Below, in pieces: positions 1-4,620 of a DNA stretch of 62,411 nt. The position numbers were made by a program, and so were the translations under genes. Source of the stretch: a virus. Each line of letters starts with the position of its first letter. Position 1 is the first letter of the stretch. Location of the stretch: positions 1 through 62,411 of the IMG/VR virus record IMGVR_UViG_3300024239_000003; one strand, 5' to 3'. The notes under the pieces were generated by a model. That model was given only the letters and a program-made list of their open reading frames with translations. It had not been told where the DNA came from and searched no databases.

Positions 1-127
1 CTGGCATTGGCGGTCAGGTCCTCGGCGAAGGGTACGCAGTTGAAGTCTTTGGCCATGCGGACGATGTGGCGCTCTGCGGCGCGGCGGCCTTCCGCCTTCT
101 CGATGGCGATGATTTCCCTGGCGGCCT
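1..127. repeat. Terminal overlap, copy 1 (identical to 62285..62411)
   Basis: Read directly: the first 127 nt (ctggcattggcggtcagg...ccctggcggcct) are also the last 127 nt of the window. This implies a circular or circularly permuted molecule. Confidence 0.97.
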
Positions 128-149
128 CGATGTGATCGAACTGTTCCAT
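1..149 (-). CDS. Hypothetical early protein, 5' end (same gene as 61903..62411; it wraps the circular junction)
   Basis: ATG at 149 (minus) preceded by GAGAGGTAGCAGC. It reads MEQFDHIEAAREIIAIEKAEGRRAAERHIVR in frame into MAKDFNCVPF, the start the ORF track gives at 62340. Confidence 0.75.
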   Translation of the reverse strand, partial: MEQFDHIEAAREIIAIEKAEGRRAAERHIVRMAKDFNCVPFAEDLTANA

Positions 150-201
150 GCTGCTACCTCTCGGTCGGTTGCTGTCCGGCATTGCTTGCCGTGTTGAGAT
201 C

Positions 202-230
202 ATCTTAGGTTAGCGTTAGAACTAACGCAA
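202..230 (-). promoter_or_regulatory. Candidate sigma70-type early promoter: TTGCGT, 17 nt, TAAGAT (minus strand)
   Basis: In the only AT-rich patch upstream of the minus-strand early operon. -35 is at 225-230 and -10 at 202-207, with an exact 17-nt spacer. Confidence 0.4.
213..228. promoter_or_regulatory. Operator-like palindrome GCGTTAG-AA-CTAACGC
   Basis: Perfect 7-2-7 inverted repeat lying in the spacer of the candidate early promoter. Confidence 0.5.
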
Positions 231-365
231 TCATAAGAAGTAGAAACCCGACGAACGGTAGTATTTAAATTTGCAAATCTGTATCGGGCTGGCAGATACT
301 TCGCTCCACCAGCTCACCTGCTGGACCAGTACAGCCTGGAAAGACGGGCGGACAGCCGGAGAGAC

Positions 366-424
366 GGCCCGATCACCTCCCACGGCTCCTGGCGGAAAAC
401 GGGAGGCTGCATCGGAAAGAGGGC
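366..424 (+). ncRNA. Hairpin module X1 (GGCCCGATCACCTCCC...GGGAGGCTGCATCGGAAAGAGGGC)
   Basis: Helix CCGAT(369-373)/ATCGG(411-415) stacked on CCTCCC(376-381)/GGGAGG(401-406). The flanks are conserved with X2. Confidence 0.4.
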
Positions 425-828
425 GGCCCGTGCAAAAAGCTGAGCAGGGCGCACGAGCAATGCGAACGGCCGGACGCAGTGCGCCATAGCTGTCAGGTTC
501 CCTCTTTCCAATGCAGAACATGGCGAAAGCCGGAAGTCTGAAAGCCAGCCACCCATGAGGTGCTTTCTGCGGTCCCCAATGCTGGATAGGGCCGCCCCCA
601 AGGGTCACGGGGAGAGTGTTGCGGAACGCCGGTCCAACAAGCAGACCTTAAACCCAGGCGTGACGGCTCGGAGAGACGAGCACTGAACAATGCAGCACCC
701 GCCGTTCGGGCATGAGCAGCAGCGCGGGAGCTTCACGAGTGGCACGACACGATCCCGTTGGTCTCATGCGGATGCGGGTGGAAACAGCGCCAGACCATGG
801 CGATACCCTGGCAAGCCGGTGGAAGTCC

Positions 829-884
829 GGCCCGATCACCTCGCCATCCCCTCGGGTAAGCTGGCGAGGCTGCATCGGAGAGGG
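829..884 (+). ncRNA. Hairpin module X2 (GGCCCGATCACCTCGCCA...TGGCGAGGCTGCATCGGAGAGGGC)
   Basis: Same flanks and outer helix as X1 (CCGAT 832-836/ATCGG 874-878). The inner helix is CCTCGCCA/TGGCGAGG, with a C:G to G:C swap relative to X1. It abuts tRNA-like element 1. Confidence 0.4.
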
Positions 885-985
885 CAATGGGTAGCTCAGC
901 GCGGTAGAGCAGCGAGCGCAAGCGGTCATGAACGCGAACGCTCATCCCCCCATGCAGGTCGCGGGTTCGACCCCCGCCTCATTGC
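885..985 (+). ncRNA. tRNA-like element 1 (34-nt anticodon-loop region instead of 7)
   Basis: Acceptor CAATGGG/CTCATTG, U8-A9, D arm GCTC-AGCGCGGTA-GAGC, variable loop AGGTC, T arm GCGGG-TTCGACC-CCCGC. Between GCGAG(912-916) and CATGC(951-955) lie 34 nt that can fold into an extended hairpin with loop GTCATGAA. Confidence 0.55.
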
Positions 986-1003
986 CTTCCCCGATGCAGA
1001 TGT

Positions 1004-1178
1004 ACCCCACTCGTCCAGTTGGTCAGGACACCATGAACCGGAGCGCCGAGGATCGCCGCCGACCTTGCACAGCGGCGGAAGGATGCGGAGCGAAGGGTAG
1101 TGTCAGGATGTTGCGTAAGTGCTGCGCAATTGAATGCCGCGAGCCGTGGAGACCGTGGTTCGATCCCACGGTGGGGCG
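1004..1178 (+). ncRNA. tRNA-like element 2 (109-nt insertion where the anticodon loop should be)
   Basis: Acceptor ACCCCAC/GTGGGGC, D arm GTCC-AGTTGGTCA-GGAC, anticodon stem CCATG(1031-35)/CGTGG(1145-49), T arm CGTGG-TTCGATC-CCACG. Bases 1036-1144 replace the 7-nt loop and contain hairpins plus AAGGATG and CAGGATG. Confidence 0.5.
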
Positions 1179-1383
1179 CCTAATCCCCGTCAACTCACTC
1201 CGGGGGCCGGCTCTGAGGCGAAGGAAGCGCCAAGGAGTAACGACGTGGAATTGCCCGCCATCGGCGCAAGGGCATGCTGGCGGGTAAGCCGCCCTTGAAA
1301 TTCTAGAGGTTGACGCCGGCAATCATGGCCAGAGGTCGAGGGCCGGCGCCTGACTTATCAGTGATCCAGCTCACAATGGGCGA

Positions 1384-1683
1384 TCACTTCGTATCAGACA
1401 GGCGATCCCCCGGCGGGGGCGTGCAGTCAGAGCGCAACGCTATCACATGCGCGACCGCGCCAGCTCTCGACCACACGTAGGCTTTCCACAGCGACACATC
1501 GTACAGTTCCACTCCGGCCAAGCGACAGGCATCTTCAAGAGCGCCACGCCAGCCCACATATCCCAGGTCAACCTCGACCGCGTCGGGAGGAACCTGGGGC
1601 TCCCCCGTGATGCGCTCGGTGTCTTGGAACCGGAAAACCCCGTTCCCCATCTCCACCACGGTGAACTCGATAGCCGTTTGCAC
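1384..1683 (-). CDS. Hypothetical protein (99 aa)
   Basis: Protein-like composition (MQTAIEFTVVEMGNGVFRFQD...). Isolated minus-strand gene between the RNA locus and terS. Confidence 0.7.
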   Translation of the reverse strand: MQTAIEFTVVEMGNGVFRFQDTERITGEPQVPPDAVEVDLGYVGWRGALEDACRLAGVELYDVSLWKAYVWSRAGAVAHVIALRSDCTPPPGDRLSDTK

Positions 1684-1696
1684 TATATCCGCTCCG

Positions 1697-1712
1697 TTTT
1701 TACAATCGAAAC
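1697..1712 (+). promoter_or_regulatory. AATCGAAAC motif site (TTTTTACAATCGAAAC)
   Basis: Member of the recurring motif family. Lies 60 nt upstream of terS. Confidence 0.4.
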
Positions 1713-1772
1713 AGTCACGCCTGAATCACCATCTCAGGCGATTCGTCAATACCGGAGTCGGATCAACGAGTT

Positions 1773-2531
1773 ATGCCCACGAAGCGCGCGCAAGATGCAG
1801 CGGCATCCCCGAAGAAACCCAGGCCCCTGACGCCCAAGCAGCAGGCTTTCGTGGACGAGTATCTCGTTGACATGAATGCAACGCAGGCGGCCATCCGCGC
1901 GAAATACAGCGCCAAGACCGCAGGCCAGATCGGCGAGAAGCTGCTGAAAAAAGCTGAAATCGCCCAGGCCATCGAGGCAGCACGCAAGGAGCTGTCTGCA
2001 CGGACGCAAATCACGCAAGAAATGGTGCTCAAACGCTGGTGGGAGATCGCCACCGCTGACCCGAACGAGCTGATCCAGCATCGCCGCGTCTGCTGCCGGC
2101 ATTGCTATGGCCGGGACCACGCCTACCACTGGAAGGACGAGGCCGAGTACGAGCGCGCTTGCGACAACGCCGCGAAGGATGACCGCGAGCCGCCCAGCGA
2201 CGAGGGCGGATACGGCTTCGACCCGACCCTGCCGCCGCATCCCAGGTGCCCGAAGTGCTTCGGCGAAGGGCACGGCGATGTATTCGTGGCCGACACCCGC
2301 CACCTCGGCCCGTCAGCCCGAGCGCTCTACGCCGGCGTGAAGGTCACGAAGGAAGGCTTGGAGATCAAGATGCAGGACCAGGGCAAGGCCCTGGAGAACG
2401 TCGCGCGCCACCTGGGCATGTTCAACGACAAGCTGACCCTGAAGGGCGACGCGGAGAACCCGATTGCGCTGCTGCTGCAACAGGTCTCCGGCGCCACGCT
2501 GAAGCCATCCGGCCAGGGAGGCGATCAGTGA
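1773..2531 (+). CDS. terS: Terminase small subunit
   Basis: N-terminus PKKPRPLTPKQQAFVDEYLVDMNATQAAIRAKYS is the typical Terminase_2/P27-type small-subunit HTH. Sits upstream of terL. Confidence 0.9.
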   Translation: MPTKRAQDAAASPKKPRPLTPKQQAFVDEYLVDMNATQAAIRAKYSAKTAGQIGEKLLKKAEIAQAIEAARKELSARTQITQEMVLKRWWEIATADPNELIQHRRVCCRHCYGRDHAYHWKDEAEYERACDNAAKDDREPPSDEGGYGFDPTLPPHPRCPKCFGEGHGDVFVADTRHLGPSARALYAGVKVTKEGLEIKMQDQGKALENVARHLGMFNDKLTLKGDAENPIALLLQQVSGATLKPSGQGGDQ

Positions 2532-2722
2532 AGCCAGGGCTGCGCGATCTTTTCGGCGCCCAGGTACAGCGCCGCGCAGGCCAGGGCCGTGCGCTTGCTT
2601 ATCTCGGTCTTCCCCGTCTCCATCGCCCTGTAGGCGTTCTCGGTCATGCCGAGGGCGGCCGCCGCGCGCCGTTTGCTGAGCTTCATGGTGCCGCGCCACG
2701 CGGCCAGTTCTTCGGGCTTCAC
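2525..2722 (-). CDS. Small HTH (XRE-like) DNA-binding protein, antisense between terS and terL
   Basis: 65 aa with GTG start. LSKRRAAAALGMTENAYRAMETGKTEISKRTALACAAL is an HTH pattern. The 3' end overlaps the terS stop by 7 nt. Confidence 0.65.
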   Translation of the reverse strand: MKPEELAAWRGTMKLSKRRAAAALGMTENAYRAMETGKTEISKRTALACAALYLGAEKIAQPWLH

Positions 2723-2956
2723 TCCACCACCACCATAAAATGCGCTATTGGAGCCGGGAATATAGCTCAGTTTCTGCGCTTTCGCGCGTCGCTACGTGAA
2801 ATCTGGCCACCAGCGTGGGGGATTGCCCAGCGCTTTTCGCGTAGGAGCGGGCTGCTGGCCTGCCGCCTGGGCTTTCATCGCCATCAGTTCCGAGAGGAGC
2901 GCGACATCCGCGTCCAGCTCATCACCGGCGGCGAGCCACTGACCATCGGCGAGGAG

Positions 2957-3052
2957 ATGCGCTGGAGCTGCAAGCGATGCGGCGTGACCTTGCTGGTCGC
3001 TCGCTGGTTCAAGTCGGCGCACCACCGGCGAGTGTGGGAGATGCTTCAGTGA
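2957..3052 (+). CDS. Possible small Cys-containing ORF translationally coupled to terL (start uncertain)
   Basis: The frame ending at TGA 3050-3052 overlaps the terL GTG as GTGA and has strong G/C third-position bias from about 2822. The only canonical start is ATG 2957 (MRWSCKRCGVTLLVARWFK...), and its SD abuts the ATG. Confidence 0.3.
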   Translation: MRWSCKRCGVTLLVARWFKSAHHRRVWEMLQ

Positions 3053-4620
3053 GCGCCCGCGTCGGCATCGACCTCGACTTCCGCCCGAACACGCCCGAGG
3101 AGCTGGCGGCCTGCCTCGCTGATCCATGGTGGCGCCTGTGCTCCGGCGCCCTGTACAAGATCATCGTCAAGACCGAGGGCGATGGCGAGGACGGCCTGGT
3201 TCTCCCGTTCCGTCCCAACCGCGCCCAGCGCCGCCTGCTGAAGAACCTGCACACGCGCAATCTGATCCTGAAGGCGCGCCAGCTCGGTTTCACGACGCTG
3301 ATCGCGATTTTCTTCCTCGACTGCGTTCTGTTCCGGGCGAACGTGCGCGCCGGCATCATCGCCCAGGACCGGAGCGCGGTGGAGACGATCTTCCGCGACA
3401 AGGTGAAGTTCGCCTACGACAATCTGCCGGACGCCCTGCGCGAGGCCATGCCGCTCGCCGTCGAGAGCAAGACCGAGCTGCTGTTCGCCCACAACAACAG
3501 CAGCATCCGCGTCGGCACGTCCATGCGCTCCGGCACGATGCACTACCTGCACGTCTCCGAGATGGGGAAGATCGGCGCCAAGTTCCCCGAGAAGGCCAAG
3601 GAGGTCGTCACGGGCTCCATTCCTGCCGTGCCTGATGACGGCATGCTGTTCATCGAGAGCACGGCCGAGGGCCAGGAAGGCGAGTTCTACAACCTCGCCA
3701 TGCGCGCCAAGCGGCTGGCGGACGGCGGCAAGCGCCTGACCAGCAAGGACCTGAAGTTCCACTTCTACCCCTGGTGGGGCGAGATGACGTATCGCTCCGA
3801 CCCGGACCTCGTGGTCATCACCCAGCGCGAGCACGAGTATTTCGACGAGATCGAGGCGAAGACAGGCGCCGTGATCGACATCGAGCAGCGCGCATGGTGG
3901 ATCGACACGCGCGACAGCCTGTTCTCCGGCCAGGACGAGAAGATGTGGCAGGAGTACCCGTCCACCCCGGACGAGGCGTTCAAGAAGTCGCTCGAAGGCT
4001 GCTACTACACCCGCCAGATCGTCGCCGCGCGCAAGGAGCGCCGGATCGGCGTCGTGCCCTACATGCCCGGCTATCCGGTCAATACCTACTGGGACATCGG
4101 CGCCGGCGACGGGACCGCCATCTGGTTCCATCAGCACATCGGCCAGCAGCATCGGTTCATCAAGTTCATGGAGGGCTGGGGCGAGCCGTACTCCTACTTC
4201 GTCGGCCAGATGCAGGCGCTCGGCTGGGTTTGGGGCACGCACTACCTGCCGCACGACGGCGCGCACATCCGCCAGGGCATGGACGCCAACCTGTCGCCGC
4301 GCGAGCAGTTGGAGAAGCTGGGGCTGAAGAACATCGAGATCGTTGACCGCGTGCAGGAGCTACAACACGGCATCCAGGCAGTCCGCGACATCTTCCCGGC
4401 CTGCTGGTTCGACGAAGAAGGCTGCAAGGAGGGCATCGCTCACCTTGAGCTGTACCGCAAGAAGTTCAACACCACGACGCAGACGTTCACCGACCAGCCG
4501 CTCAAGGACATCCACACCGAGGGCGCCGACAGCTTCCGGCAGTTCGCCCAGGGCTACAAGGTCGTCAACGTCCGCGCCGGGCAGCGGCCGAAGCGGAAGG
4601 TCAGCGCGAGGGCTGTTTAG
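3049..4620 (+). CDS. terL: Terminase large subunit
   Basis: The ORF track gives 2977..4620. Coding-type codon bias begins at GTG 3049, preceded by GGGAGA. Large ATPase/nuclease-sized protein between terS and portal (…LILKARQLGFTTL…MLFIESTAEGQEGEFY…). Confidence 0.88.
   Translation: MSARVGIDLDFRPNTPEELAACLADPWWRLCSGALYKIIVKTEGDGEDGLVLPFRPNRAQRRLLKNLHTRNLILKARQLGFTTLIAIFFLDCVLFRANVRAGIIAQDRSAVETIFRDKVKFAYDNLPDALREAMPLAVESKTELLFAHNNSSIRVGTSMRSGTMHYLHVSEMGKIGAKFPEKAKEVVTGSIPAVPDDGMLFIESTAEGQEGEFYNLAMRAKRLADGGKRLTSKDLKFHFYPWWGEMTYRSDPDLVVITQREHEYFDEIEAKTGAVIDIEQRAWWIDTRDSLFSGQDEKMWQEYPSTPDEAFKKSLEGCYYTRQIVAARKERRIGVVPYMPGYPVNTYWDIGAGDGTAIWFHQHIGQQHRFIKFMEGWGEPYSYFVGQMQALGWVWGTHYLPHDGAHIRQGMDANLSPREQLEKLGLKNIEIVDRVQELQHGIQAVRDIFPACWFDEEGCKEGIAHLELYRKKFNTTTQTFTDQPLKDIHTEGADSFRQFAQGYKVVNVRAGQRPKRKVSARAV

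What the first reader, a model, noticed from the sequence alone, without database searches (positions are those of the whole stretch)
366..884. Duplicated hairpin module with a compensatory base-pair change
Two copies about 465 nt apart share the flanks GGCCCGATCACCTC...GAGGCTGCATCGGA(A/G)AG(A)GGGC and the outer helix CCGAT/ATCGG. The inner helix differs while keeping its pairing: CCTCCC/GGGAGG in X1 against CCTCGCCA/TGGCGAGG in X2, a C:G to G:C swap plus an extension. The apical loops are unrelated. That pattern is what selection on RNA structure produces. X2 ends exactly where tRNA-like element 1 starts, so the module could be a processing or leader structure. The 5' strand contains GATCACCTC, the sequence of the 16S rRNA 3' end, paired to an SD-like GGGAGG/GAGG.
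Basis: seen in the sequence. Interest (0 to 1): 0.6.

Follow-up and report, generated by a model that had tools for sequence, protein, structure and literature searches.

The report
Front end of phage RNA cassettes
The two repeated hairpins are real and are the conserved front ends of two copies of an unannotated "frame" that Pseudomonas phages use to hold many different folded RNAs (here one tRNA look-alike) inside a 20-base-pair closing stem; what the frame does has not been tested.

Summary
The shared flanks occur twice, 463 nt apart (0 expected by chance), and the inner hairpin keeps pairing through changed bases. The interpretation needs one large correction. The shared 3' flank CUGCAUCGGARAG is not mainly the partner of the 5' CCGAU. 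It is the 5' strand of a long stem closed by a downstream CCNAUGCAG strand (407-423/500-516 and 870-889/980-999). In copy 2 this stem runs straight into the acceptor stem of a non-decoding tRNA-shaped RNA.

The same frame is: upstream hairpin, GCCCGAU, covarying hairpin CCU..AGG, 20-24-bp closing stem, variable cargo. It appears in about 180 IMG/VR and genome loci, 31 named Pseudomonas phages and 41 of 151 Pseudomonas species genomes, with at least 58 cargo types. It matches no Rfam family, is never annotated as RNA, and I found no paper on it. That helix survives only as a possible transient alternative pairing. The 16S-3'-end/SD resemblance is not conserved.

Best reading: a folding, insulating and probably processing frame for cargo RNAs in phage early transcripts. 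The mechanism is inferred. Earlier reports of this scan found the same family on other DNA.

The parts
355..368 (+). P0 of copy 1: small hairpin GCCG-GAGAGA-CGGC directly abutting the conserved CCGAU
   Evidence: Sequence. In 99 of 141 distinct upstream contexts a hairpin ends 0-3 nt before CCGAU. The P0 sequence itself is not conserved across the family.
369..375 (+). Conserved 5' strand CCGAUCA of copy 1. It is single-stranded in the final fold and can alternatively pair with UG.AUCGG (409-415).
   Evidence: (G)CCCGA is invariant in 31 of 31 relatives found with the covariance model. The alternative hairpin is predicted in 72 of 73 isolated front ends.
376..406 (+). P2 of copy 1: hairpin CCUCCC/GGGAGG (376-381/401-406) with a 19-nt loop
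   Evidence: Folds. 57 distinct P2 versions across the family keep the pairing.
407..423 (+). 5' strand of the closing stem of copy 1 (CUGCAUCGGAAAGAGGG)
   Evidence: Inverted repeat I2, 17 nt, 94%. Covariance-model match 367-518, 47.3 bits, E 2e-12.
424..499 (+). Cargo of copy 1: a recurrent cargo class with conserved GCGGNNCRUGMAAAAAGC and CCGGACG motifs
   Evidence: 14 distinct relatives inside the same frame; 8 predicted pairs with compensatory change.
500..516 (+). 3' strand of the closing stem of copy 1 (CCCUCUUUCCAAUGCAG); C.A mismatch at stem position 7
815..831 (+). P0 of copy 2: hairpin GCCGG-UGGAAGU-CCGGC abutting CCGAU
   Evidence: Sequence and fold. Phage Jeremy has CCGG-UGAAAGU-CCGG at the same place.
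832..838 (+). Conserved 5' strand CCGAUCA of copy 2
839..869 (+). P2 of copy 2: hairpin CCUCGCCA/UGGCGAGG (839-846/862-869)
   Evidence: Jeremy has CUUCGCAG/CUGCGAGG at the same place, with compensatory changes and a U.G pair.
870..884 (+). 5' strand of the closing stem of copy 2 (CUGCAUCGGAGAGGG), continuous with the acceptor stem of the cargo
   Evidence: Inverted repeat I1, 20 nt. Covariance-model match 830-1001, 124.5 bits. Covariation.
885..984 (+). Cargo of copy 2: tRNA-shaped RNA. Acceptor stem 885-891/978-984, U8, D arm, variable AGGUC, T arm GCGGG-UUCGACC-CCCGC. A roughly 44-nt irregular arm replaces the anticodon stem-loop, so it is non-decoding.
   Evidence: Sequence. ARAGORN finds no tRNA. 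The homologous Jeremy element scores 34.9 bits on Rfam tRNA with a 37-nt insertion. The same cargo sits in the Shamal-class frames.
985..999 (+). 3' strand of the closing stem of copy 2 (CCUUCCCCGAUGCAG); A.C mismatch at stem position 10 (A879/C990)

Best explanation
The two repeats are the front ends of two copies of a modular non-coding RNA 'frame' on the + strand.

**Anatomy of each copy**
- A small upstream hairpin (P0).
- A conserved strand GCCCGAU(CA).
- A hairpin P2 whose base CCU/AGG is fixed and whose upper part covaries.
- Directly after P2, with no linker, the strand CUGYAUCGG+N. This strand pairs with a distant CCNAURCAG-ending strand to make a 20-24-bp closing stem around a variable cargo RNA.
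- In copy 2 the cargo is a tRNA-shaped, non-decoding RNA, and its acceptor stem stacks on the closing stem.

**Shown:** this anatomy, its covariation, its strand, its spread in Pseudomonas phages, and the free exchange of cargos.

**Inferred**
1. The frame lets any cargo fold on its own inside a long phage transcript.
2. During transcription, the 5' CCGAU(CA) strand pairs for a while with UG.AUCGG. It keeps that strand from mispairing with the cargo until the true 3' partner is made and displaces it.
3. The finished stem of about two helical turns, closed at its foot by P2, then marks the unit for excision by a double-strand-specific nuclease such as RNase III. Alternatively it simply shields the unit from exonucleases. 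Either way the cargo accumulates as a stable small RNA.

The cargos' own functions are unknown.
For: **The repeat**
- It is real and non-random.

**Closing stem and P2**
- MAFFT alignment A3: 93% of closing-stem cells paired, and 12 of 20 stem pairs have changes on both sides.
- 31 relatives found by covariance model in Pseudomonas genomes: 94.9% of cells paired. 15 of 25 pairs have changes on both sides. The covariation score is 0.361 against 0.122 for shuffles (0/500) and at most 0.073 for slid controls.

**Strand**
- Outside two hot spots there are 40 G.U against 6 A.C in the stem, and 19 G.U inside P2.
- The model scores 124.5 and 47.3 bits on the + strand against 29.6 and 21.2 on the - strand.
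- All large flanking protein clusters are codirectional with the element. For example, a cI-like repressor lies about 1.9 kb upstream on the same strand in 52 loci.

**Modularity**
- 187 instances carry at least 58 cargo clusters of 43-190 nt. One identical scaffold carries at least 8 cargo lengths.
- Stem length peaks at 20 and 22 bp.

**Alternative pairing**
- 72 of 73 isolated front ends fold into one extended hairpin, with mean -16.2 against -8.0 kcal/mol for P2 alone.
- A module's own 5' strand fits better than swapped ones: -8.73 against -8.10 +/- 0.23, 1 of 300 swaps as good.
- In the full element the long stem wins by a median of 7 kcal/mol (X1 7.0, X2 9.5).
- 46 of 61 stem types carry a mismatch (mostly A.C-type) at position 7 or 10, inside or next to the contested segment.

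**Setting**
- In prophages the unit fills a roughly 220-nt gap between same-strand early genes.
- In L168 two units follow a tRNA-Asp gene and end at a terminator-like GC-rich hairpin followed by a U-run, read by eye. In L119 a unit ends 6 nt before a tRNA-Asn gene.
Against: - There are no transcript, end-mapping or probing data, so excision, stability and the folding order are all inference.
- The transient 5' pairing has no compensatory changes. One of its pairs is broken in 6 of 30 relatives and the CA:UG extension in most. The conserved GCCCGAU may therefore serve another purpose, such as a protein or tertiary contact.
- The basal 9 bp of the stem are conserved in sequence, which plain RNase III recognition does not require.
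- Invariance of CUGYAUCGG in the pattern-derived set is partly built in by the scan patterns. Only the covariance-model set is free of that bias.
- RNAfold z-scores of the window segments are unremarkable (-1.67 and -1.21).
Confidence: 0.5

Rival explanations
1. Protein-binding handle. The sequence-conserved foot of the frame is GCCCGAU, the CCU/AGG base of P2, and CUGYAUCGG/CCNAURCAG with its A.C mismatch. In this reading it is the docking site of one common host or phage protein, and the cargo supplies specificity or a decoy surface. This is the logic of Y RNAs with Ro60, or of guide-RNA scaffolds.
For: - The foot is conserved in sequence while the upper 11 bp covary freely.
- Non-canonical A.C or C.A pairs recur at two fixed positions in 46 of 61 stem types.
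- GCCCGA is invariant without a proven pairing partner.
- tRNA-shaped cargos recall YrlA.
Against: - No protein family co-occurs with the element across lineages. The largest cluster, a cI-like repressor, is in 52 of 180 loci and belongs to one phage group.
- No TROVE/Ro60 gene is present in the complete 62-kb phage.
- The Ro-binding motif GNCGAAN(0-1)G is absent, and the tRNA-like domain is not permuted as it is in YrlA.
Confidence: 0.2
2. Each copy is a self-contained hairpin with outer helix CCGAU/AUCGG and the inner helix. It acts as leader or processing signal for the following tRNA-like element, and its GAUCACCUC strand mimics the 16S rRNA 3' end paired to an SD-like GGAGG.
For: - The extended hairpin is the predicted fold of the isolated front end in 72 of 73 variants.
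- The CCGAU strand is highly conserved.
- X2 abuts a tRNA-like element.
Against: - AUCGG pairs with the downstream strand in all full-length folds, and that pairing covaries.
- The outer helix shows uncompensated breaks and no covariation.
- Most cargos are not tRNA-like.
- The 16S-like 9-mer or 10-mer is present in only 8 or 3 of 69 front ends.
Confidence: 0.12
3. DNA-level element. The inverted repeats are terminal repeats of a small mobile element (MITE or Correia-like), or sites for a recombinase or terminase, and the 'covariation' reflects both ends having to bind one protein.
For: - A perfect or near-perfect 13-22-nt inverted repeat flanks a variable interior.
- The pentamer CCGAU occurs before and at the end of the unit, like a target duplication.
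- The window copy lies upstream of terS.
- Cargos are exchanged between phages.
Against: - There are 1-3 copies per genome, not tens.
- Orientation is fixed relative to the flanking genes.
- Mismatches are G.U on one strand only, 40 against 6.
- P2 lies on one side only and covaries.
- Cargos include tRNA-shaped RNAs reading on the same strand.
- The 'duplicated' G is A or C in 41% of stem types.
Confidence: 0.05
4. Self-cleaving ribozyme. The conserved junction nucleotides form a catalytic core that cuts the transcript at the frame.
For: - About 30 conserved nucleotides are concentrated at a helix junction.
- There is a weak twister-sister match at 782-868 (21.1 bits, E 0.19).
Against: - The score is below Rfam's gathering score of 34.
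- The match rests on the P0 hairpin, which is not conserved in the family.
- The P1 pairing that the match needs is not kept in phage Jeremy.
- No other ribozyme family matches.
Confidence: 0.04

Closest known systems
rRNA-operon processing stems and phage T7 intergenic RNase III sites
   Same: Distant flanking sequences pair into a stem of about two helical turns. The stem encloses a stable RNA, or sits between cistrons of a long transcript, and it carries internal mismatches. The location between genes of a phage early operon is also shared.
   Different: - The foot of the stem is conserved in sequence.
- A conserved 5' strand and hairpin precede it.
- The enclosed RNA is freely exchangeable (at least 58 types).
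- Cleavage has not been shown.
Bacterial Y RNAs of the YrlA type (Chen et al. 2014, PMC4201824; Rfam RF02553)
   Same: A stem formed by the two ends of the RNA carries a tRNA-shaped domain with intact D and T arms that cannot decode. Phages also encode them.
   Different: - In YrlA the T arm precedes the D arm and the Ro-binding stem takes the anticodon position. Here the order is that of a normal tRNA and the stem extends the acceptor.
- There is no GNCGAAN(0-1)G motif and no Ro60 gene.
- The Rfam score is 15.7 bits against a cut-off of 69, and in another register.
- Most cargos here are not tRNA-like.
Metastable 5' hairpins that are displaced by a late-transcribed 3' partner (hok mRNA of plasmid R1; rRNA leader; from my own knowledge)
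   Same: A 5' segment can pair locally with a strand whose stable partner lies far downstream. The long-range pairing is thermodynamically favoured (median 7 kcal/mol).
   Different: No kinetic data exist here, and the local pairing has no covariation support.
Stable tRNA-like RNAs in phage tRNA clusters
   Same: They are phage-encoded, non-decoding, tRNA-shaped RNAs of unknown function, sometimes next to true tRNA genes.
   Different: Those RNAs are not described as held in a shared, sequence-conserved frame with exchangeable content.

Membership tests
YrlA / bacterial Y RNA (RF02553) | Encoded within about 4 kb of a Ro60 (TROVE) gene on the same strand | tested here: not met
   No TROVE match in the complete 62,411-base phage record; the positive controls did match. 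The criterion is taken from PMC4201824.
YrlA / bacterial Y RNA (RF02553) | GNCGAAN(0-1)G motif near the 5' end; permuted tRNA-like domain (T arm before D arm, with a closed 'acceptor' hairpin between them) | tested here: not met
   The motif is absent from the frame. The cargo has the normal order D arm, long arm, T arm, with an open acceptor stem continued by the frame. The Rfam match is 15.7 bits against a gathering score of 69.
tRNA (RF00005) | Cloverleaf with a 7-nt anticodon loop on a 5-bp stem; detected by tRNA finders | tested here: not met
   ARAGORN finds 0 genes in the window. No Rfam tRNA match up to E 10 in 1-2000. The acceptor, D arm, variable loop and T arm are present, but the anticodon arm is replaced by about 44 nt. 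The Jeremy homologue passes Rfam only with a 37-nt insertion.
Twister-sister ribozyme (RF02681) | Reaches the Rfam gathering score; conserved internal-loop nucleotides; P1 pairing kept in relatives | tested here: not met
   21.1 bits against a gathering score of 34. The matched hairpin (P0) is not conserved in the family. The P1 complement is missing in Jeremy.
MITE / Correia-like repeat | Many copies per genome, both orientations, target-site duplication, uniform interior | tested here: not met
   1-3 matches per Pseudomonas genome. Orientation is codirectional with neighbouring genes. The interior is hypervariable. The flanking pentamer is not a true duplication in 41% of stem types.
RNase III processing stem | About 20 bp or more of double-stranded RNA in a transcript | tested here: met
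   Stem lengths peak at 20 and 22 bp. The window copies have 17 bp (X1) and 22 bp including the acceptor stem (X2).
RNase III processing stem | Staggered cleavage in the stem that depends on rnc | not testable with these tools
   This needs end mapping in wild-type and rnc hosts.
The frame family defined here (covariance model R1) | GCCCGAU, then P2 (CCU..AGG), then CUGYAUCGG closing stem with a 3' CCNAURCAG strand | tested here: met
   Window 830-1001 scores 124.5 bits. This row was in the seed alignment, so the match is by construction. Window 367-518 scores 47.3 bits, E 2e-12, and was not in the seed.

The most novel reading that the evidence does not exclude
The frame is a general-purpose phage 'RNA expression cassette': a standard, self-insulating holder. 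Pseudomonas phages use it to acquire, swap and deliver diverse small structured RNAs, as they do with accessory protein genes. Such RNAs would include tRNA mimics and other decoys aimed at host RNA-targeting defences or at RNA-binding regulators. The conserved foot would be the recognition site of a dedicated maturation or partner factor. This would be a previously unrecognised layer of exchangeable RNA 'morons' in the phage-host arms race.
Probability: 0.2. Interest if true: 0.85.

Novelty: new variant of a known kind. Interest (0 to 1): 0.62.

Why it matters
If the frame works as proposed, about a quarter of the Pseudomonas species genomes searched, and many named P. aeruginosa phages including therapy candidates, carry unannotated small-RNA genes. 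These genes sit in a slot now labelled 'intergenic' or 'hypothetical protein'.

The frame gives a simple signature for finding them: a conserved front end plus a closing stem. It also gives a natural design for expressing a folded RNA from inside an operon. Finally, it offers a tractable case for studying co-transcriptional strand exchange.

The tRNA-shaped cargos bear on the open question of what non-decoding phage tRNA look-alikes do.

Tried and rejected
- **Rfam 15.** Searches at gathering and at E up to 10 over the window and three phage loci gave no family for the module. Weak twister-sister, YrlA, group II and snoRNA matches were rejected on score and on non-conservation.
- **ARAGORN.** No tRNA in the window.
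- **YrlA/Ro60.** No TROVE gene.
- **DGR link.** Avd and RT lie downstream of the module in only 4 loci and not in the window.
- **Common protein partner.** None spans the lineages.
- **RsmA/CsrA sponge (GGA-rich).** The GGA of the frame lies inside the stem, and the GGA in the P0 loop is not kept in Jeremy. Not pursued further.
- **HDV-like, hammerhead and other ribozyme topologies.** Compared by eye; the strand order does not fit.
- **Recent copy of a host tRNA.** BLAST of the tRNA-shaped cargo against two Pseudomonas genomes gave only short, insignificant matches.
- **Adjacency to true tRNA genes.** Adjacent same-strand tRNA genes were seen in three loci: L153 and L168 among the 180 scanned, and L119 separately.
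- **Literature.** Six full-text searches, including the motif strings themselves, found no description.
- **MAFFT alignments of mixed cargo lengths (A1, A2).** These misplaced the 3' strand, so I discarded them in favour of A3 and the model-based A6.

Full report
**1. The observation**

The window is a complete 62,411-base virus record with terminal repeats. Across 200-1450 it is 98.6% identical to Pseudomonas phage Itty13.

Positions 231-1380 hold no convincing gene. The longest ORFs there have no Pfam match. The stretch lies between a minus-strand ORF (3-203) and the small and large terminase genes (1773-2531 and 2977-4620, + strand).

- 365-379 = 828-842, 15 of 15.
- 403-419 ~ 866-882, 16 of 17, at the same spacing of 463.
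- The composite pattern occurs twice, against none in 100 shuffles.

**2.

The shared 3' flank is one arm of a longer inverted repeat:
- 407-423 pairs with 500-516 (17 nt).
- 870-889 pairs with 980-999 (20 nt).

Minimum-free-energy folds place the inner hairpin directly in front of this long stem and leave CCGAUCA unpaired.

In copy 2 the stem (870-884/985-999) continues without a break into the acceptor stem (885-891/978-984) of a tRNA-shaped RNA. That RNA has U8, a D arm, an AGGUC variable loop and a GCGGG-UUCGACC-CCCGC T arm. About 44 nt stand where the anticodon stem-loop should be. ARAGORN and Rfam do not call it a tRNA.

In copy 1 the stem encloses a different 76-nt RNA.

**3. Relatives**

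BLAST found the same architecture in phages Jeremy and Shamal, with visible compensation:
- Jeremy's inner hairpin is CUUCGCAG/CUGCGAGG.
- Shamal's stem is CUGUAU.../...AUACAG.

Collections were then searched in four ways:
- Two pattern scans of IMG/VR.
- One pattern scan of 185,579 species genomes.
- A parser requiring front end plus closure, which gave 187 instances in 180 loci, 108 distinct scaffolds and 61 distinct stem feet.
- A covariance model, R1, built from 20 equal-length members (A3).

R1 finds only the two copies in window 1-3000. X2 scores 124.5 bits but was in the seed. X1 scores 47.3 bits and was not in the seed. The minus-strand readings score 29.6 and 21.2 bits.

R1 matches 41 of 151 sampled Pseudomonas species genomes, with 1-3 matches each. 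One of these, G102, is unpublished. I did not use its loci, and no other claim rests on it; without it the tally is 40 of 150.

Real pattern hits outside Pseudomonas were limited to a Stutzerimonas genome and a genome labelled Pantoea.

The front end is present in 31 named Pseudomonas phage records (Haboob, Shamal, YMC11/02/R656, TC7, JBD88b, MD8, phi1, phi2, Ab31 and others). It is never annotated as RNA.

**4. Structure tests**

| Measure | A3 (MAFFT alignment) | A6 (31 genome members found by the model, so the core was not fixed) |
|---|---|---|
| Closing-stem cells paired | 93% | 94.5% |
| Closing-stem pairs (of 20) changed on both sides | 12 | 13 |
| Stem plus P2, cells paired | 90.6% | 94.9% |
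| Stem plus P2, pairs (of 25) changed on both sides | 13 | 15 |
| Covariation score | 0.340 | 0.361 |
| Shuffled mean (shuffles reaching observed) | 0.106 (0/500) | 0.122 (0/500) |
| Slid controls | at most 0.083 | at most 0.073 |

The A6 alignment is fitted to the model, which favours the structure somewhat. A3 is not fitted and agrees.

P2 covaries. Its first pair is C-G in 23 and U-A in 7. Its fifth pair is G-C in 13 and C-G in 5. There are 57 distinct versions, with loops ranging from GNRA tetraloops to 30 nt.

The strand is the + strand:
- Outside two hot spots the stem has 40 G.U against 6 A.C.
- P2 has 19 G.U pairs.
- The tRNA-shaped cargos read on this strand.
- The flanking genes run the same way.

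**5.

On A6, four of its five pairs never vary. The U:A pair is broken in 6 of 30 sequences (CCGAG variants). The two further CA:UG pairs are broken in 7 of 30 and 19 of 29. None shows a compensatory change. In the same sequences, the rival pairing of A38 with the 3' strand is kept in 31 of 31.

It still cannot be dismissed, for four reasons:
- (G)CCCGA is invariant.
- The isolated front end folds into the extended hairpin in 72 of 73 variants, gaining about 8 kcal/mol over P2 alone.
- A module's own 5' strand fits its contested strand slightly better than 5' strands swapped in from other modules (-8.73 against -8.10 +/- 0.23; 1 of 300 swaps as good).
- Some lineages carry CCGAUGC, a perfect 7-nt copy of the 3' strand.

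In full-length elements the long stem wins by a median of 7 kcal/mol: 7.0 for X1, 9.5 for X2, and only about 1-3 for the Shamal class.

Three quarters of stem types (46 of 61) carry a mismatch at stem position 7 or 10 (mostly C.A or A.C). That is inside or next to the contested AUCGG. The two mismatches rarely occur together: 5 observed against about 11 expected.

I read this as a conserved alternative pairing that is most likely transient. This is inference.

**6. Modularity and setting**

The 187 instances hold at least 58 cargo clusters of 43-190 nt. One identical scaffold holds cargos of at least eight lengths, and the same cargo appears behind different upstream hairpins and in front of different downstream genes.

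Cargos include:
- the tRNA-shaped RNA of X2, which is also the Shamal-class cargo;
- the X1 class, with 14 distinct relatives and 8 covarying pairs;
- a second-level frame, GCGCAGGCUGAUGCGC...CCGGAGAUCAGCACCGG, with its own variable insert.

Stem length peaks at 20 and 22 bp.

In temperate phages the unit fills a roughly 220-nt gap between same-strand genes of the early operon. It lies about 2 kb downstream of the cI-like repressor and about 30 nt before the next ribosome-binding site.

In some phages it is part of a small RNA operon with true tRNA genes. In L168 the order is tRNA-Asp, two units, then a terminator-like GC-rich hairpin with a U-run, read by eye. In L119 a unit ends 6 nt before tRNA-Asn.

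In the window, X2 is followed 3 nt later by a second tRNA-shaped element.

**7. What it is not**
- No Rfam family matches.
- It is not YrlA.
- It is not a MITE: copy number is low, orientation is fixed, and wobble pairs are on one strand only.
- It is not tied to the DGR seen in four loci.
- It is not tied to any single protein family.
- The 16S 3'-end likeness is confined to a few lineages.
- Six literature searches found nothing.

**8. Mechanism, and how far it is shown**

Shown:
- The frame's anatomy, strand and covariation.
- Two mutually exclusive pairings for CUGYAUCGG.
- Exchangeable cargo.
- Its location in phage early or RNA operons.

Inferred, about 50% overall: the frame insulates cargo folding. 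The 5' strand acts as a temporary placeholder during transcription. The completed stem of about two helical turns, capped at its foot by P2, marks the unit for excision (RNase III is the obvious candidate) or protects it, so that the cargo accumulates as a stable RNA.

The main rival, at about 20%, is a protein-binding handle. That reading would better explain the sequence-conserved foot and the fixed A.C mismatches.

**9. Relation to earlier notes of this scan**

After forming the above reading, I found that other reports had described the same family on other DNA (e1-1958583, e1-1958584, e1-3377721, e1-5351162, e1-2012432). They describe swappable RNA cassettes in a conserved stem. They are unchecked notes. 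The YrlA lead was tested and not met.

What this report adds:
- The unbiased test of the outer helix.
- The competing-strand picture.
- The mismatch hot spots.
- The 27% prevalence in the Pseudomonas species genomes searched.

Noticed in passing
window 1003-1180: A second tRNA-shaped element starts 3 nt after copy 2. It has a D-arm-like GUCC-AGUUGGUCA-GGAC, a T arm CCGUGG-UUCGAUC-CCACGG and acceptor CCCCA/UGGGG, with about 100 nt inserted between the D and T arms. It is not held in the frame. It might set the 3' end of the preceding unit through RNase P.
   Followed up: partly
window 693-828: The structured segment in front of copy 2 (long hairpin GGGCAUGAG...CUCAUGC, then GAAACAGCGCCAGACC) is conserved with P. 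putida phage Jeremy (about 71% over window 693-1002, copy 2 included) and phage Dolphis (about 80% over window 708-843). It is therefore a further conserved RNA domain of the island.
   Followed up: partly
window 279-333: A degenerate third closing stem, CUGUAUCGGGCUG...UGGACCAGUACAG (11 of 13 pairs), lacks the front end. The model scores it at 5.7 bits only. It overlaps the likely promoter region, so it may not be transcribed in full.
   Followed up: partly
window 203-238: An operator-like palindrome, UCUUAGGUUAGCGUUAG/CUAACGCAAUCAUAAGA, sits in the AT-rich divergent region between the minus-strand ORF and the RNA island.
   Followed up: no
window 424-499 and 13 distinct relatives at other loci (e.g. 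L125:264-374, L137:5830-5941): The cargo of copy 1 belongs to a recurrent cargo class with an A-rich AAAAAAGC segment and a CCGGACG motif. A long-range pairing (GGGU:ACCC, GGCC:GGCC, GCCC:GGGC), which RNAalifold did not draw, seems to covary.
   Followed up: partly
Stem positions 7 and 10 of the closing stem (window 413/510 and 879/990): C.A and A.C mismatches recur at exactly these two positions in 46 of 61 stem types and tend to exclude each other. On the opposite strand they would read as G.U. The cause is unexplained. They may tune stem strength, or serve as a recognition or anti-cleavage mark.
   Followed up: partly
L008, L021, L045, L053, L097 and others (cargo class 0): Many cargos are themselves a second-level frame: GCGCAGGCUGAUGCGC...variable...CCGGAGAUCAGCACCGG. 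GCUGAU and AUCAGC covary (GUCGAU/AUCGAC in L053). The same motif also follows the frame in Jeremy and L107.
   Followed up: no
L020 3412-6380 (also L024, L046, L069): A diversity-generating retroelement lies directly downstream of the RNA unit in a subset of P. aeruginosa prophages. It comprises two Lcl_C-like target genes, bAvd and a reverse transcriptase.
   Followed up: partly
L168 1577-2170: A compact phage RNA operon: tRNA-Asp, a frame unit, a T-loop-bearing spacer, and a second frame unit whose cargo has a T arm. It ends in a terminator-like hairpin, CCCCGC...GCGGGG, followed by UUUUCUUU, read by eye.
   Followed up: partly
Phage records MW460249 (Itty13), OR683409 (Shamal), BK061588, ON778007: 'Hypothetical protein' CDS features are annotated across the RNA units, for example Itty13 QRE00608 over the copy-1 region. 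These are probably miscalls.
   Followed up: no
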